Positions 1 to 20,894 of a stretch of DNA of 64,000 bases are shown one piece after another (positions within the stretch are counted from its first letter, which is position 1; each line of letters begins with the position of its first letter). The notes under the pieces were generated by a model. It was given only the letters and a program-made list of their open reading frames with translations, did no database searches and was not told where the DNA came from. A program made the translations under genes and the position numbers. The stretch is from a virus: the IMG/VR virus record IMGVR_UViG_3300032030_000014, positions 67,919 through 131,918 of that record, one strand, 5' to 3'.

Positions 1-630
1 TATGGTAAGGGTTATACTCTTGCTATGCAGGAATATGATGAACAGTTCCGCAAGATTCTCCAAATGAATTATGGTCTTGTAATTATCTCCCATGATAAGG
101 ATAAGACTTTCAAGGATGAATCCGGTCAGGAGTATAATAAGATTGTTCCTACTCTGGACAATCGTGCCGCTCTGGTTTGCGAGCGCACCTGTGATATTAT
201 TGGATATGCTCGTGAAGTAAATACAGAGAATGGTCCTCAAACTCGCCTGTTCCTTCGTGGAACTCCTCGTTTTGAAGCTGGTTCTCGTTTCCGCTACACT
301 CCCGATTCCATTGAGTTTTCTTATGATGCTCTGGTAAATGCTATTGGCGATGCTGTTGAGAAGGAAGCCGCTCATGGAGCCAATCGTGTAACAGATCATA
401 GCCAGAGTGCAACTGTATATGCAGAAGAAACCACATATGATTTTGCGGCTATGATGGATGAGTTCCAAGCAATCGTTGGCGAACTTGTTAAGAAGCCCAA
501 TATGACAGCGAAGATTACCGCTATTGTAGACAAGCATCTCGGCAAGGGCAAGAAGGTTGCTGAATGCACCGCAGTTAATGCACCTCAACTTGATCTCATT
601 CTTTATGAACTGAGAGAATTGATTAAGTAA
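1..630 (+). CDS. AAA_24 / Sak4-like RecA-fold ATPase, C-terminal part (gene starts upstream of the window)
   Basis: ORF is open from nt 1 in the frame of the 25..630 ORF. The motif LVIISHDKDK...DESGQEY...PTLDNRAAL is typical of the phage AAA_24 (PF13479) C-terminal region. TAA stop at 628-630. Confidence 0.45.
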   Translation, partial: YGKGYTLAMQEYDEQFRKILQMNYGLVIISHDKDKTFKDESGQEYNKIVPTLDNRAALVCERTCDIIGYAREVNTENGPQTRLFLRGTPRFEAGSRFRYTPDSIEFSYDALVNAIGDAVEKEAAHGANRVTDHSQSATVYAEETTYDFAAMMDEFQAIVGELVKKPNMTAKITAIVDKHLGKGKKVAECTAVNAPQLDLILYELRELIK

Positions 631-640
631 ATATATAAAA

Positions 641-674
641 GCCTCGTAGATCCTCTGCGGGGCTTGACTTTTAT
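641..674 (+). terminator. putative rho-independent terminator after the ATPase gene
   Basis: Stem gcctcgtaga / tctgcggggc (10 bp including two G-U pairs), 3-nt loop, followed by ttgacttttat. Confidence 0.35.
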
Positions 675-692
675 ATAAAAATATGATATAAT
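664..692 (+). promoter_or_regulatory. sigma-A type promoter (TTGACT-17 nt-TATAAT) for the 726 operon
   Basis: Exact -35 at 664-669, a 17-nt spacer, TATAAT at 687-692. AGGAG ribosome-binding site at 711-717, ATG at 726. Confidence 0.5.
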
Positions 693-725
693 AAATATAT
701 AAAATGGTGAAAGGAGAATTAAAAA

Positions 726-1259
726 ATGGCACATTATGTAGTCTGCTCAATTTGTAAAGAGCGATTTGATAGAGATAAATATCCTGCTGTCCTTGTAAGT
801 TCGCGTCGATATGCACATGCGACTTGTGCCGGCACCCTTTCACAAGAAGATGAACAAAAAGAAAAAGACAGAAAAGCGTTAGAAAATTATATTATCAAAT
901 TATTTAATTTAGAGCATATGGATGGACGCATTACTTTACAAATATAGAAATATATGCAAGATCATCCTGAATATACATATTCTGGTATTAAAAGAACATT
1001 AGAATATTTTTATGAAATAAAGAAAAATTCATTGGAAAAGGCTAATGGTGGTATTGGCATTGTTCCGTGGGTTTATGAAGAAGCAAAAAGATATTTTTAT
1101 AATCAATGGTTATTAAGTCAAAAAAACGCTGAGAAAGATATTGAAATGTATATTCCAAAAGTAAGAGAAATTGTTATTCAACCACCAAAACGCCAACCAA
1201 AGAGAAGAAAAGTATTTACATTTTTAGACGAAGAGGAGGTCAAAGACTGTGGCAAATAA
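726..1259 (+). CDS. zinc-ribbon protein (CxxC...H..C), probably one 177-aa protein read through the TAG at 945-947
   Basis: ORFs 726..947 and 954..1259 share a frame and are separated only by a TAG. A strong ribosome-binding site precedes 726 but none precedes 954. If TAG were a stop these would be two small genes. Confidence 0.4.
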
Positions 1260-1299
1260 ATATGTTGATACAACAGCAATTATGTAGGTCATTGGAAAT

Positions 1300-2793
1300 G
1301 TGTTTAATAATCCACAGCTCTTAGACTTTACAGATAAATATACCGTAAATGACGAAGACTTTCCAGATCAGTTTCATAAAATTGCTTTTGGAGCCATTTA
1401 TAAACTACATGAGCTTGGCGTTCAAAAGATTACTCTAAATTCAATCGCAGACTTTCTTGCGGCGAGACCTAAAAGCGAGGCTATTTTCAAACAGCAAAAA
1501 GGCGAAGAATGGTTGTTGAAAGTAGCAGAGAATTGTACTCCCAATGCTTTTGATTATTATTACGATAGACTAAAAAAGTTTACACTTCTTAGAGCATATG
1601 ATGCTTATGGTATTAGCGTAAATGATATTTATGACCCCGACGATATTCTTGATACGAAGAAAAGACAGGCTCAAGAAGATAAATTAGATAATATGAGCCT
1701 AATTCAAATCGCAGATGAAATTGATAAAAAAGTTGAAGATTTGCGCCTGCGGTATGTTGATGAAGTAATTGACGAAGCACAGCAGGCTGGCGATGGAATT
1801 TTTGAATTAATTCAAGGATTTAAAGATAATCCAGAAGCAGGAGTTTCTTTGTATGGTCCGTTGGTAAACACGGTAACGCGAGGAGCAAGATTGAAGAAGT
1901 TTTATCTGCGGTCAGCCCCCACTGGCGTTGGAAAATCTCGTTCAATGGTAGCAGATGCCTGTTATATCGGTTGCAATAAAATGTATGATGAAATTTTCGG
2001 CTGGATAAAAACAGGCCCAGCCCAGCCAACGCTATATATCGCTACTGAACAGGATTTAAGCGAAATCCAGACAATGATGTTAGCTTTTATTTCTGATGTA
2101 AATGAAGAGCATATCATTGATGGTAAGTATGAGGGCGATGAAGAAGAGAGAGTGCTTGAAGCGGCAAAGATTATAAAAAATTCTCCGCTGTATGTAGAAC
2201 ATCTTCCTGATTTCTCCCTTCAAGATGTTGAAAATAAAATTAAACGAAATATTAGAGATCACGATGTAAAGTATATTTTCCACGACTATATTCATACTTC
2301 AATGAAAATTCTTGAAGAAATTACTCGCCGTAGTGGTGGAGTAAAACTTCGTGAAGATAATATTTTGTTTATGTTATCTAATAAAATTAAAGACCTTTGT
2401 AATCAATATGGTGTATTTATTATGTCGGCAACTTAGTTAAACGCAGATTATCAAACAAGTGAAACACCAGACCAAAATCTGCTTCGTGGTGCAAAAAGTA
2501 TTGCTGATAAAATTGATTTTGGTGCAATTATGTTACTTGTAAAAGACGATGATAAAAAAGGTCTTGAAAAAATTCTCTCTACTGGAACCTTTGAAACTCC
2601 GACAATTAAGATTTCAGTATATAAAAACCGTAGAGGCAGATATAAAGGGATTTACCTATGGTGCAAAGCGGATTTAGGCACATGCCGCATCAAGCCCATG
2701 TTTGCAACAGGTTGGGATTACGAACTTATCCCAATTGATGATACAAGAATTCATATAGCAAGTGCATTTCCAGATGATGAAGAAGAAGATTAA
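1300..2793 (+). CDS. dnaB: DnaB-family replicative DNA helicase with one in-frame TAG (2434-2436) at the conserved Gln of motif H4
   Basis: Walker A LRSAPTGVGKSR. ORFs 1300..2436 and 2530..2793 share a frame. The sequence through the TAG reads FIMSAT-Q-LNADYQ...LLRGAKSIADKIDFGAIMLLVKDDD, which aligns with E. coli DnaB ALSQLNRSLE...DLRESGSIEQDADLIMFIYRDE. The start is ambiguous: GTG at 1300 or in-frame ATG at 1282. Confidence 0.85.
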
Positions 2794-2805
2794 AGGAGTA
2801 TTACA

Positions 2806-19292: not shown

Positions 19293-19782
19293 AATCATCA
19301 AAGCTACGATTTTCAGCTTTCATTTGTGCTCTTACTTTATCAACTACTCTATCATGAAGAGCATCTCCTCGGTGATTACCACCAAGCCCCTTATAAACTT
19401 CATAATCAACTTCAAATTCTTCATATTCATCAACTGTTATATAATGTCCTGATCCTAATAAGTATTCGCAAAAGTCTCTAAATTGTTTTCCCTAAATTGA
19501 CAAAATACCAGACCCCATATGATCAACATCTTTATGAATTTGATCTAATTCGTTCTGTAGTTTTTCATCTTCTTCTTTAGACTAAACTTCAACCTTAGAA
19601 ATTTCTGTCTCTAAGGTACTTATAATTTTACTACACATATTTTTCTCTTTTTCTTTCCATTTCTCTTCCATGCTCTTTTTTTGTAATTTAACATAGTGTT
19701 TTGCAAATAAAGCAATACCACCAGCAACAAGAGCACATAACCAATTTATCCAATATTTTGCAATCCATTCTAAAACTTCCAT
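19291..19782 (-). CDS. small membrane protein (163 aa) with an N-terminal transmembrane helix and a coiled-coil/acidic tail; two TAGs
   Basis: ORF 19582..19782 continues in frame past the TAG to a TAA at 19291-19293. The hydrophobic N-terminus is EWIAKYWINWLCALVAGGIALFA. GGAGG ribosome-binding site. Confidence 0.5.
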
Positions 19783-19879
19783 TAAAACTCCTCCTTAATT
19801 TTTTGACATTTATTCTGTCTAAAATTATTTAAATATTAAAATAGAAATTTTATTAATTTTTGTCCTTAATAATAAAAAA

Positions 19880-19913
19880 GCCAGAGGAAAAATCCTCTGG
19901 CTTACTTTTTTTA
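19880..19913 (-). terminator. rho-independent terminator after the 19917..20312 gene
   Basis: Stem gccagagga, loop aaaatc, stem ctctggc. It is flanked by an A-run and a T-run, so it works on either strand. Confidence 0.55.
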
Positions 19914-19916
19914 TTA

Positions 19917-20312
19917 TTATTTCTATTTTTGTTCTTTAACTGCAGATTCAATTAAAACAGTTATATATTCATCTAAATCTCCGATAATTTGTTCAAGATA
20001 AGTTAATACATCTTCTGACAGAGAAAGCATTACTGCTTCATAAACTTTTTTAAAAGCCTCTTCTTGTGCTTCTTTTGTAAAAGAATTTTCTTTTTTTAAT
20101 TCATCTACATAAGTTTGATTAACAGTAATGACTGTCTTAGTAACGAGTTCCTAAAGAATATCAATATAAAGAAAATATCTATCGTCTTTGACTTTTTCTT
20201 TTAATTGATTCGCTTTTGCATTAATCCACTTTACCGCAAAACCACCAAGTGCAATTAGTAGTGGAATTAATACAGTCTAAATAATAACTGGTAAAAGTTC
20301 TTTATAATCCAT
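19917..20312 (-). CDS. small membrane protein (~131 aa), holin-like topology (one N-terminal transmembrane helix); two TAGs
   Basis: Ribosome-binding site AAGGAGGG 7 nt upstream of the ATG at 20312. MDYKELLPVIIQTVLIPLLIALGGFAVKW then a charged helical tail. TAA stop. Confidence 0.45.
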
Positions 20313-20411
20313 ATATAAAACCCTCCTTATTTTTCTTGTTATTATTATAACAAAATTTTTATATAAATACAACTCTTTTCCGCCAAAGACCAAAAATTTT
20401 TTGGACAAAGA

Positions 20412-20466
20412 GGGAAAAATTCCCTTTTTAAGTTTTCATAAAGTATTGCGGGAGGGAAAAATTCCC
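20412..20466 (+). promoter_or_regulatory. two exact copies of the inverted repeat AGGGAAAAATTCCC (20411-20424 and 20453-20466), 42 bp apart, upstream of the TAG-rich + strand cassette
   Basis: Seen directly in the sequence. Each copy is a palindrome GGGAA-AAA-TTCCC. A third A-tract palindrome CCAAAAATTTTTTGG lies ~20 bp upstream. Candidate activator or repressor site, or part of a late promoter. Confidence 0.3.
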
Positions 20467-20495
20467 GTGAATTTTTGGTAAAAGGAGGTTTAGCA

Positions 20496-20894
20496 ATGCC
20501 ATACTAGCCTACACAAAATTATTATTATCAACCTCAACAAACTCAGGTACGTTAGCCCTTAATAGGACTTAAAGGACGTCCAGTGTCTGGATTGGAAGAG
20601 GTTAGAGCTGCTGCAGTCGACTTCGATGGAACGATTTCATTCTTTCCCGATTTGGCCAATGGGAAAATTTATACGAAGCAATGTAATGTAGATGGAACAG
20701 CTTCATTAAATATGTATGAAATCAAAGAAATCCCAGCGACACCAGCATCAAATCCAAACGCATATGTCACTAGAGAAGAATTTAACTAGACAATGACAGC
20801 ATTAAAATAGGTATTGGCGCAAGCTAATCTTGTAAAGGAGAGTTCTGATCAAACTCAGCCTCAACAAACTTCTACTCCTGAATTCAATTTTTAA
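20496..20894 (+). CDS. hypothetical Q/Y/P-rich protein (~132 aa, five TAGs)
   Basis: AAAGGAGG ribosome-binding site 7 nt upstream. It is in frame with ORF 20583..20789. TAA stop at 20892-20894. Confidence 0.45.

What the first reader, a model, noticed from the sequence alone, without database searches (positions are those of the whole stretch)
630..20500. Host signals point to a Gram-positive anaerobe, not the Bacteroidota hosts known for code-15 crAss-like and Lak phages
Nearly every early gene is preceded by AGGAG or GGAGG at 6-9 nt. Three promoters match TTGACa-17-TATAAT perfectly. A lipobox lipoprotein and NrdDG anaerobic RNR are encoded. GC is about 33%. A BclA-C-terminal-like protein is present, a domain known from spore-formers. 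Together these suggest a Clostridia- or Bacilli-like host.
Basis: inference. Interest (0 to 1): 0.6.

Follow-up and report, generated by a model that had tools for sequence, protein, structure and literature searches.

The report
Recoded phage with Firmicutes-type host
This is part of a large gut or rumen phage that reads the TAG stop codon as glutamine, and its expression signals and nearest relatives point to a Gram-positive (Firmicutes) host; that is sound, but recoded phages of this kind were already described in 2021-2023.

Summary
The window is 64 kb of a 163.7-kb metagenomic phage contig. TAG is read as Gln: late ORFs of up to 2810 aa carry up to 70 in-frame TAGs. In close relatives, window TAG codons align only with TAG or Gln.

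In 630-20500, 12 of 23 genes have AGGAG/GGAGG and 16 of 23 have at least a 4-nt core. Only one promoter is a perfect TTGACA-17-TATAAT; two more are near-perfect. All three carry a TG-extended -10. The lipobox protein, NrdDG and GC of about 34% are confirmed but say nothing about host phylum. The BclA-C-like fold is confirmed, but it lies at 21991-22416, outside the stated range.

The host inference holds on independent evidence:
- Shine-Dalgarno use is 77% of 43 genes, against 9% in Bacteroides phage crAss001 and 67-88% in Bacillus, Butyrivibrio and Roseburia phages.
- The replication module is collinear with SPbeta yorF-yorL and with Enterococcus phages.
- Holin and BclA-like homologues occur only in phages of Roseburia, Faecalibacterium, Anaeroplasmataceae and Butyrivibrio.
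- Two of three related MAG contigs are binned as Clostridia.

The contrast with Bacteroidota is not new. Borges et al. (2021) and Babkin et al. (2023) already described recoded phages with predicted Firmicutes or Clostridia hosts. No CRISPR or prophage link was obtainable.

The parts
664..692 (+). Promoter-like site P1: TTGACT-17-TATAAT with a TG-extended -10, upstream of the yorH-like gene
   Evidence: intergenic, 11 of 12 matches
726..1259 (+). YorH-like protein (1 in-frame TAG at 945-947)
   Evidence: Pfam Phage_SPbeta_YorH on the database gene call; AGGAG at 9 nt
1249..2793 (+). DnaB-like replicative helicase (YorI-like; 2 in-frame TAG, both aligned with Q in SPbeta YorI)
3030..4136 (+). 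DNA primase (YorJ-like), TAG-free
   Evidence: phrog_47, E 4e-35; weak Toprim hit
4508..6286 (+). RecJ-like exonuclease (YorK-like) with 9 in-frame TAG
   Evidence: Pfam DHH and RecJ_OB only when TAG is read as Q; 38% identity to SPbeta YorK
6330..7094 (+). Lipobox lipoprotein with a Phage_lysozyme2 domain, standard code, AGGAGG at 8 nt
   Evidence: no homologue in the phage or plasmid collections
7598..7626 (+). Promoter-like site P2: the only exact TTGACA-17-TATAAT, with a TG-extended -10
7955..9157 (+). SF1 (RecD/Dda-like) helicase, TAG-free
9157..9813 (+). Putative N6 DNA methyltransferase (weak Pfam match), TAG-free
   Evidence: N6_Mtase E 4e-4, just below the curated cut-off
9810..9838 (+). 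Promoter-like site P3: TTGATT-17-TATAAT with a TG-extended -10, upstream of PolIII alpha
9867..13859 (+). DNA polymerase III alpha (YorL-like), 1330 aa, no TAG
14356..16632 (+). Anaerobic ribonucleotide reductase NrdD, 4 in-frame TAG
16820..17314 (+). NrdG activase; the gene ends with tandem TAG-TGA
18181..18762 (+). dUTPase (1 in-frame TAG)
18759..19244 (+). RuvC-like resolvase (2 in-frame TAG)
19249..19286 (.). Bidirectional intrinsic terminator between the convergent + and - units
19291..19782 (-). N-terminal transmembrane plus coiled-coil protein downstream of the holin; function unknown
   Evidence: AGGAGG at 7 nt
19917..20312 (-). Holin (3 in-frame TAG)
   Evidence: phrog_13712, E 1e-27; homologues in Roseburia, Faecalibacterium and Anaeroplasmataceae phages
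21168..21974 (+). Gly-rich transmembrane protein (phrog_16490), partner gene of the BclA-like protein
21991..22416 (+). Stand-alone BclA-C/TNF-C1q-like jelly-roll protein (4 in-frame TAG), very highly conserved
23444..29167 (-). Tail fibre, 1907 aa with 22 TAG; this is the variable gene among close relatives
29380..62688 (-). Late tail/baseplate module read in code 15; includes proteins of 2653 aa (47 TAG, BspA-type LRR) and 2810 aa (70 TAG). SD precedes 12 of the 13 genes in this block
62808..64000 (-). C-terminal end of the tail tape measure protein (runs off the window)
   Evidence: phrog_34405 and phrog_4211

Best explanation
The window is the replication module, a small lysis-associated region and the tail module of a large TAG-to-Gln recoded tailed phage. 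The contig is 163.7 kb and relatives reach 200 kb. Sample and MAG labels suggest a rumen origin.

The host is most likely a member of Bacillota (Firmicutes). The likeliest class is an anaerobic Clostridia lineage (Lachnospiraceae or Oscillospiraceae-like). It is not Bacteroidota.

Proposed mechanism:
1. On entry, the host sigma-A RNA polymerase uses three sigma-70-type promoters with TG-extended -10 boxes. These lie upstream of genes 726, 7663 and 9867.
2. Host ribosomes start translation through strong Shine-Dalgarno pairing (AGGAGG-type, 6-11 nt upstream).
3. TAG-free genes can be made at once: primase, lipoprotein lysozyme, SF1 helicase, methylase and PolIII alpha.
4. Genes with in-frame TAG need a suppressor tRNA encoded outside the window. 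These include RecJ, NrdD, DnaB, RuvC, the holin, the BclA-like cassette and all large tail genes.

Shown: the signals, the recoding and the homologies. Inferred: the host identity, the timing of expression and the suppressor.
For: Recoding.

Shine-Dalgarno use: 33/43 genes against 3% background, and it continues in late genes. The same script gives 9% for Bacteroides phage crAss001, 67% for SPbeta, 73% for Butyrivibrio phage Ceridwen and 88% for Roseburia phage Shimadzu.

Promoters and terminators. The Bacteroidetes -7 motif TAnnTTTG is not enriched (1 seen, 1.1 expected).

Replication module: the order YorF, YorG (AAA_24), YorH, DnaB, primase, RecJ ... PolIII alpha is collinear with SPbeta yorF-yorL. 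It matches only cultured Firmicutes phages (Enterococcus, Bacillus, Geobacillus, Staphylococcus) at 31-37% identity over 77-87% of 2051 aa.

Tail proteins: they hit only the Enterococcus EF1/H1/VRE9 group and uncultured human-gut phages, including TAG-recoded phAss-1.

Holin: homologues in Roseburia, Faecalibacterium and Anaeroplasmataceae phages.

BclA-like protein: the only cultured homologue is in Butyrivibrio virus Ceridwen, with the same upstream partner gene. The fold is closest to Bacillus exosporium proteins.

NrdD: 64-75% aa identity to the NrdD of a Thomasclavelia phage.

MAG bins: related PolIII alpha contigs are binned as Clostridiales UBA4362 and Clostridia Tb.RUG.527.
Against: There is no direct link to a host genome. 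No CRISPR spacer search was possible. No integrase, attachment site or prophage junction was seen in the window or in 7 kb upstream.

One related 138.8-kb contig is binned in a Methanobrevibacter MAG.

Shine-Dalgarno use and sigma-70 promoters exclude Bacteroidota-type expression, but many bacterial phyla share them.

Homology to cultured phages is distant (31-48% aa).

The endolysin, whose wall-binding domains would be informative, is not in the window. The tail fibre shares only a ubiquitous repeat with phages of many phyla.
Confidence: 0.85

Rival explanations
1. The host is a Bacteroidota bacterium (for example rumen Prevotella), as for crAss-like and Lak code-15 phages. On this reading the Gram-positive-like signals are phage idiosyncrasies.
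For: Code 15, low GC and an anaerobic gut or rumen setting are shared with crAss-like and Lak phages. A few Bacteroides and Parabacteroides phages share a 60-90-aa tail-fibre repeat.
Against: Shine-Dalgarno use is 77% here and 9% in crAss001 with the same script. The promoters are sigma-70 type -35/-10, and there is no TAnnTTTG enrichment. No module-level homology to any Bacteroidota phage was found. The fibre repeat is equally present in Aeromonas, Vibrio, Xanthomonas and Terrisporobacter phages.
Confidence: 0.03
2. The host is a bacterium outside the classical Gram-positive Clostridia and Bacilli that also uses Shine-Dalgarno sequences and sigma-70 consensus promoters. Examples are diderm Negativicutes (Selenomonas), wall-less Anaeroplasma-like Mycoplasmatota, Spirochaetota and Fibrobacterota.
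For: The expression signals are not specific to monoderm Firmicutes (established knowledge). One holin homologue is in an Anaeroplasmataceae phage. NrdD is closest to phages of Thomasclavelia, an Erysipelotrichaceae genus. The 163-aa transmembrane plus coiled-coil protein next to the holin has no annotated function.
Against: All module-level relatives with a cultured host infect Enterococcus, Bacillus, Geobacillus, Staphylococcus, Roseburia, Faecalibacterium or Butyrivibrio. Two MAG bins are Clostridia. No o-spanin-like lipoprotein lies near the holin.
Confidence: 0.09
3. The host is a methanogenic archaeon (Methanobrevibacter), as suggested by the MAG in which a related 138.8-kb contig was binned.
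For: Locus L005 comes from 'uncultured Methanobrevibacter sp. RUG12316', with 52% PolIII alpha identity and the same gene order. Methanobrevibacter is a low-GC rumen anaerobe that uses Shine-Dalgarno sequences (general knowledge).
Against: The promoters are bacterial -35/-10 type with hairpin-plus-T terminators. The replisome is bacterial: DnaB, Toprim primase, C-family PolIII alpha and NAD-dependent LigA. A bacterial-type lipobox and a murein-lysozyme domain are present. All cultured relatives infect bacteria. Composition-based binning of a free phage contig is a common artefact. The other two bins are Clostridia.
Confidence: 0.02

Closest known systems
Alternatively coded phage clades predicted to infect Firmicutes (Borges et al., bioRxiv 10.1101/2021.08.26.457843: Agate, Topaz and Jade among the 'gemstone' clades)
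   Same: Stop-codon recoding in gut and animal phages whose predicted host phyla include Firmicutes. Recoding is concentrated in structural and lysis genes and variable in replication genes. GC is low. Agate phages are about 154 kb and occur in cattle.
   Different: Clade membership could not be tested, because TerL is outside the window and their genomes are not in the searchable collections. The Agate lineages analysed in detail there are TGA-recoded, whereas this phage recodes TAG.
phAss-1 and the proposed Phassvirus group (Babkin et al. 2023, PMC10607447)
   Same: TAG-to-Gln recoding in virion genes and some DNA-processing genes. Genome of about 136 kb. Predicted Clostridia/Eubacteriales host. 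The authors group it with Enterococcus phage EF1. A tail protein of this window hits phAss-1, the EF1 group and MT835469.1.
   Different: Only 28% aa identity over 48% of one tail protein, and no nucleotide-level match. The source appears to be rumen rather than human gut, and the genome is larger. It is not a member of the proposed genus.
Bacillus phage SPbeta and Enterococcus phages EF1, H1 and VRE9
   Same: Collinear yorF-yorL type replication module with a C-family PolIII alpha. The Enterococcus group also shares two tail proteins.
   Different: 31-39% aa identity only. This phage additionally inserts a lipoprotein lysozyme, a helicase and a methylase into the module.
crAss-like (Crassvirales) and Lak phages
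   Same: Code 15, low GC, gut or rumen habitat, and some genes left TAG-free.
   Different: The host signals are opposite: SD in 9% of crAss001 CDS against 77% here. No crAss-like or Lak phage appeared among the listed matches of any protein search. The replication module is different.
Butyrivibrio virus Ceridwen (rumen Lachnospiraceae siphovirus)
   Same: It shares the gene pair of a roughly 270-aa protein followed by a BclA-C-like protein of about 140 aa (48% identity). SD use is similar.
   Different: A 40-kb phage with no other detected similarity to the window.

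Membership tests
Code-15 (TAG to Gln) recoded phage | Conserved genes are interrupted by in-frame TAG and become full-length when TAG is sense | tested here: met
   ORF statistics. NrdD, RecJ and DnaB give full Pfam matches with TAG read as Q.
Code-15 (TAG to Gln) recoded phage | TAG positions align with glutamine in homologues | tested here: met
   Close relatives: TAG 163, Q 9, nothing else; in the reverse direction Q 7, L 1. Distant homologues: Q 6, E 4, K 3, R, A, D.
Code-15 (TAG to Gln) recoded phage | Phage-encoded suppressor tRNA(CUA) | tested here: inconclusive
   No tRNA in the 64-kb window or in the fetched flanks and relatives. About 93 kb of the contig could not be read.
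Phage of a Bacillota (Firmicutes) host | Most genes are led by a strong Shine-Dalgarno sequence at 5-12 nt | tested here: met
   33/43 genes against 10/313 control sites. Comparable to Bacillus, Butyrivibrio and Roseburia phages and unlike crAss001.
Phage of a Bacillota (Firmicutes) host | Sigma-A type promoters (TTGACA-17-TATAAT, often with TG-extended -10) before early operons | tested here: met
   Three sites at 664, 7598 and 9810, scoring 11, 12 and 10 of 12, all with TG. The overall count of weak matches is not above shuffles (100 against 88).
Phage of a Bacillota (Firmicutes) host | Module-level homologues in cultured phages of Firmicutes | tested here: met
Phage of a Bacillota (Firmicutes) host | Direct host link (CRISPR spacer match, or an integrated prophage in a Firmicutes genome) | tested here: inconclusive
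   The one genome scan found only MAG contigs: two Clostridia bins and one Methanobrevibacter bin. Spacer matching is not possible with these tools.
Phage of a Bacillota (Firmicutes) host | Gram-positive type lysis cassette (holin plus endolysin with wall-binding domains, no spanins) | tested here: inconclusive
   A holin was found. No endolysin lies next to it. The neighbouring 163-aa protein is unannotated.
SPbeta-like replication module | Collinear yorF, yorG, yorH, yorI (DnaB), yorJ (primase), yorK (RecJ), yorL (PolIII alpha) | tested here: met
   Three extra blocks are inserted (a 74-aa gene, a 96-aa gene, and lipoprotein to methylase).
Phassvirus (phAss-1 genus) | High nucleotide identity and genome synteny with phAss-1 (members share 83-86%) | tested here: not met
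   No megablast match for window 1-25000. Only one tail protein matches, at 28% aa.
Crassvirales / Lak phages | Hallmark gene homology and Bacteroidota-type expression signals | tested here: not met
   No Crassvirales or Lak record appears among the listed matches of any protein search. SD and promoter contrast.
BclA_C (PF18573) / TNF-C1q-like exosporium domain | Jelly-roll fold matching solved BclA-CTD structures | tested here: met
   AF2 model with pLDDT 97.6. Top Foldseek hits are 9h38 (F-BclA CTD), 1wck (BclA) and 7r1m/8d02 (ExsFA/BxpB), TM 0.66-0.78, probability 1.00.
BclA_C (PF18573) / TNF-C1q-like exosporium domain | Sequence match to the Pfam model | tested here: inconclusive
   The window protein has no hit at E <= 0.1. 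Of 41 family members, 4 hit BclA_C (best E 6e-7).
BclA_C (PF18573) / TNF-C1q-like exosporium domain | Collagen-like repeat stalk N-terminal to the domain, as in BclA | tested here: not met
   The protein is a stand-alone 140-141 aa domain.

The most novel reading that the evidence does not exclude
This may be an undescribed, very abundant family-level lineage of 160-200-kb code-15 phages of rumen Clostridia (for example Butyrivibrio-like Lachnospiraceae). In it, recoding reaches deep into the replication module: RecJ has 9 TAG, NrdD 4, DnaB 2 and RuvC 2. Only a TAG-free core just downstream of host-type promoters can be expressed before suppression (primase, helicase, methylase, PolIII alpha, lipoprotein). 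The code switch would then have to happen before or during DNA replication, not at the early/late boundary.
Probability: 0.35. Interest if true: 0.45.

Novelty: new member of a known kind. Interest (0 to 1): 0.25.

Why it matters
Knowing the host phylum is a precondition for isolating or modelling a recoded phage. This lineage looks common in ruminant metagenomes: one of its proteins has thousands of database homologues, and related contigs reach about 200 kb.

The finding does not change the picture. Recoded phages of Firmicutes were predicted in 2021 and 2023. Its practical value is as a clean, checkable example. It also shows that two cheap signals, the Shine-Dalgarno fraction and sigma-A promoters, separate Firmicutes-type from Bacteroidota-type recoded phages. 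The set of TAG-free genes behind host-type promoters is a testable pointer to which genes run before the code switch.

Tried and rejected
- PDB sequence searches with the BclA-like protein, alone and as a 41-sequence profile, found nothing relevant. Only the fold comparison worked.
- tblastn of the lipoprotein against phages and plasmids gave no match. The 163-aa membrane protein also gave no match.
- The tail-fibre search returned only a ubiquitous 60-90-aa fibre repeat from phages of many phyla, so it was rejected as host evidence.
- Pfam on eleven late proteins gave no family above its curated cut-off; the only weak hits were LRR_5 and Phage_fiber_2.
- Rfam and tRNA scans of the window and flanks found nothing.
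Only 7 kb upstream could be added, so integrase, attachment site, TerL, endolysin and suppressor tRNA could not be examined.
- The single genome-collection scan returned only MAG contigs. The Methanobrevibacter bin was judged a binning artefact (bacterial signals).
- A literature search for IMG taxon id 2799112909, source of one related viral contig, found nothing.
- The total count of weak promoter-like matches is not above shuffled sequence. Only the three top intergenic sites are used as evidence.

Full report
WHAT THE WINDOW IS

The 64-kb window has GC of 24-38% by 2-kb block. It carries + strand genes from 25 to 23403 and minus-strand genes from 23444 to the end, plus two minus-strand genes at 19291-20312.

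Under the standard code the minus-strand part breaks into short ORFs. If TAG is read as sense, the longest ORF rises from 758 to 2817 aa and ORF coverage doubles. Reading TGA as sense does not help, and reading TAA as sense only multiplies short ORFs without lengthening the longest one.

With TAG read as Q, NrdD matches Pfam NRDD over positions 2-562 of 562, at E 8e-147.

In six closely related metagenomic loci, window TAG codons align with TAG 163 times and with Gln 9 times, and with nothing else. The reverse comparison gives Gln 7 and Leu 1. Against distant homologues, Gln is the commonest partner. In the late genes TAG is as frequent as CAA (228 against 221) and far commoner than CAG (32).

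The window comes from ENA assembly ERZ27257205, contig k141_4886592, which is 163,725 bp long. The same genes occur on contigs up to 197 kb in the protein database. A viral contig of 200,444 bp in IMG/VR is a relative with 85% PolIII alpha identity. Sample labels (SHIW14, STEW19) and MAG names (RUG) suggest sheep and cattle rumen. That reading of the labels is my inference.

CHECKING THE OBSERVATION

Shine-Dalgarno. In 630-20500 I count 23 genes. Twelve have AGGAG or GGAGG, ten of those at 6-9 nt, and 16 have at least a GGAG/GAGG core. "Nearly every" is too strong; most of the exceptions are overlapping, probably translationally coupled genes. The signal itself is very strong. Over the window, 33 of 43 genes have the core, against 10 of 313 internal in-frame ATGs and 4% of all ATGs. 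My start-codon choice used SD among early alternative starts, which is a small bias.

Promoters. Only one exact TTGACA-N17-TATAAT exists, at 7598-7626. Two more are TTGACT-17-TATAAT at 664-692 and TTGATT-17-TATAAT at 9810-9838. All three have a perfect -10, a 17-nt spacer and a TG-extended -10 (aTGaTATAAT or aTGtTATAAT). All lie on the + strand, their -10 boxes end 29-37 nt before an SD-led start codon. Weak promoter-like matches overall are no more frequent than in shuffled sequence (100 against 88).

Lipoprotein. The protein at 6330-7094 begins MRKKISILVIICVLMMAFIG|C and fits the PROSITE-type lipobox pattern. It carries a Phage_lysozyme2 domain.

NrdD and NrdG are confirmed. GC is 34.2% in the stated range.

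BclA-like protein. The candidate is a 141-aa protein at 21991-22416, about 1.5 kb outside the stated range. It has no Pfam or PDB sequence hit of its own. However, 4 of 41 diverse family members hit Pfam BclA_C. An AlphaFold model built from a 41-sequence alignment has pLDDT 97.6. Its best matches among solved structures are the F-BclA tip-fibrillum C-terminal domain, B. anthracis BclA-CTD, and ExsFA/BxpB, with TM 0.66-0.78.

WHICH CUES ACTUALLY DISCRIMINATE

Lipoproteins, anaerobic ribonucleotide reductase and low GC occur in phages of both phyla; low GC is a general property of recoded phages (Borges et al.). The TNF/C1q-like fold is also widespread, and one hit is a cyanophage fibre domain.

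The discriminating cues are SD use and promoter type. Bacteroidota largely lack SD-led initiation and use a different promoter consensus (-33 TTTG, -7 TAnnTTTG); this rests on established knowledge.

I tested both directly. With the same script on annotated CDS starts, Bacteroides phage crAss001 has the SD core before 9% of 45 genes. The figure is 67% for SPbeta, 73% for Butyrivibrio virus Ceridwen and 88% for Roseburia phage Shimadzu; the window has 77%. The Bacteroidetes -7 motif occurs once in 1680 nt of upstream intergenic DNA, with 1.1 expected.

INDEPENDENT EVIDENCE FROM RELATIVES

Replication module. The 7 kb upstream of the window adds LigA, ThyA, YonG_N, YorF and AAA_24. The replication module therefore reads YorF, YorG, YorH, DnaB, primase, RecJ ... 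PolIII alpha, collinear with yorF-yorL of Bacillus phage SPbeta. A concatenated query of five of these proteins finds module-length matches only in phages of Enterococcus, Bacillus, Geobacillus and Staphylococcus, at 31-37% identity over 77-87% coverage. PolIII alpha alone gives the same ranking.

Tail proteins. Two tail proteins match only the Enterococcus EF1/H1/VRE9 group and uncultured human-gut phages. One of those is phAss-1, a TAG-recoded phage whose authors predict a Clostridia/Eubacteriales host and group it with Enterococcus phage EF1.

Holin. The protein at 19917-20312 matches phrog_13712 at E 1e-27. It has homologues in Roseburia phage Shimadzu (directly after the endolysin), Faecalibacterium phage Lagaffe and an Anaeroplasmataceae phage.

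BclA-like protein. Its only homologue in a cultured phage is in Butyrivibrio virus Ceridwen, at 48% identity and preceded by a gene of about 275 aa, as in the window.

NrdD. It is 64-75% identical in protein, and 75% in DNA, to the NrdD of Thomasclavelia ramosa phages.

MAG bins. Two are binned as Clostridia or Clostridiales. One, of 138.8 kb, is binned as Methanobrevibacter.

RIVAL HOSTS

A Bacteroidota host is contradicted by every discriminating test above.

An archaeal host, as suggested by the Methanobrevibacter bin, is contradicted by bacterial promoters and hairpin terminators, a bacterial replisome, NAD-dependent ligase, a lipobox and a murein-lysozyme domain. The binned contig has the same phage gene order and is most simply a mis-binned phage genome.

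What remains open is which Bacillota lineage is the host, and whether it is a monoderm. The holin and BclA-like links favour Lachnospiraceae or Oscillospiraceae. NrdD points to Erysipelotrichaceae phages. The replication and tail modules point to Bacilli phages.

No CRISPR or prophage evidence could be obtained. The endolysin, TerL, suppressor tRNA and any integrase lie outside the readable DNA.

HOW IT MOST LIKELY WORKS

Host sigma-A RNA polymerase starts at P1-P3, and host ribosomes initiate through SD pairing.

The genes just downstream of P2 and P3 contain no TAG and can be made in the host's standard code. They are 7663-8016, the helicase, the methylase and PolIII alpha. Three other genes are also TAG-free: the primase, the lipoprotein lysozyme (6330-7094) and 7126-7620.

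YorH, DnaB, RecJ (9 TAG), NrdD (4), dUTPase, RuvC, the holin, the BclA-like cassette and every large tail gene need TAG suppression, presumably by a tRNA encoded elsewhere on the contig. The signals and the TAG distribution are shown. The order of events is inferred.

COMPARISON WITH WHAT IS KNOWN

Borges et al. [quoted passage not shown] They describe a Topaz prophage in an Oscillospiraceae contig and "Firmicutes-infecting AC phages". They also note that recoding of replication genes is variable.

Babkin et al. 2023 describe the phAss-1 group.

The window is therefore a new, distant member of a known kind. It is not a Phassvirus (no nucleotide match). It cannot be placed in a Borges clade without TerL.

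Noticed in passing
window 726-19244: Recoding is not confined to late genes. In-frame TAG counts are YorH 1, DnaB 2, RecJ 9, the DUF3310 protein 2, NrdD 4, dUTPase 1 and RuvC 2. The primase, lipoprotein, helicase, methylase and PolIII alpha are TAG-free; the last three sit directly behind the sigma-70-type promoters at 7598 and 9810.
   Followed up: partly
window 17309-17314: NrdG ends with tandem TAG-TGA. The protein therefore terminates at essentially the same place whether or not TAG is being suppressed.
   Followed up: no
window 945-956: The first gene after promoter P1 (yorH-like) has a TAG at codon 74, followed two codons later by an in-frame ATG. It could give two short products in standard code or one 177-aa product under suppression.
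   Followed up: no
window 21168-22416: A gene pair consists of a Gly-rich transmembrane protein (phrog_16490) and a stand-alone BclA-C-like jelly-roll protein (phrog_20016). The second has 4625 database homologues, and the top 120 are at least 82% identical. The pair recurs in Butyrivibrio virus Ceridwen. Its role is unknown; a virion decoration or a surface-acting protein are guesses.
   Followed up: partly
window 33143-41104 and 54256-62688: Two giant late proteins of 2653 aa (47 TAG, BspA-type LRR near the C-terminus) and 2810 aa (70 TAG, no Pfam hit). Eight further late proteins have no Pfam match at all.
   Followed up: partly
window 23444-29167; loci L008-L016: The 1907-aa tail-fibre gene is replaced by genes of other lengths (1286+459, 1636, 1500+740, 1644 aa) in relatives that encode an identical BclA-like protein and the same flanking gene order. 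This is a host-range cassette.
   Followed up: partly
L005 (CACYVR010000001.1, 138,782 bp): A related phage contig with the same replication gene order, in standard code over the part read, is deposited in a MAG named Methanobrevibacter sp. RUG12316. This is probably a binning artefact.
   Followed up: partly
window 6330-7094: An early-module, standard-code lipoprotein with a Phage_lysozyme2 domain has no tblastn match in 50,697 phage records or 72,556 plasmids. It is nevertheless conserved in the relatives whose replication module was read (L003; a similar-sized ORF at the same position in L005).
   Followed up: partly
L020 (Thomasclavelia phage TR-TP1): The closest NrdD, at 64-75% aa identity, is split in that phage by an HNH endonuclease gene. 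In the window NrdD is uninterrupted.
   Followed up: no
L051 (IMGVR_UViG_2799112909_000002, 110,556 bp): One IMG/VR relative (51% PolIII alpha identity) carries a taxon id of the style used for isolate or single-cell genomes rather than metagenomes. Looking it up could name a host directly.
   Followed up: partly
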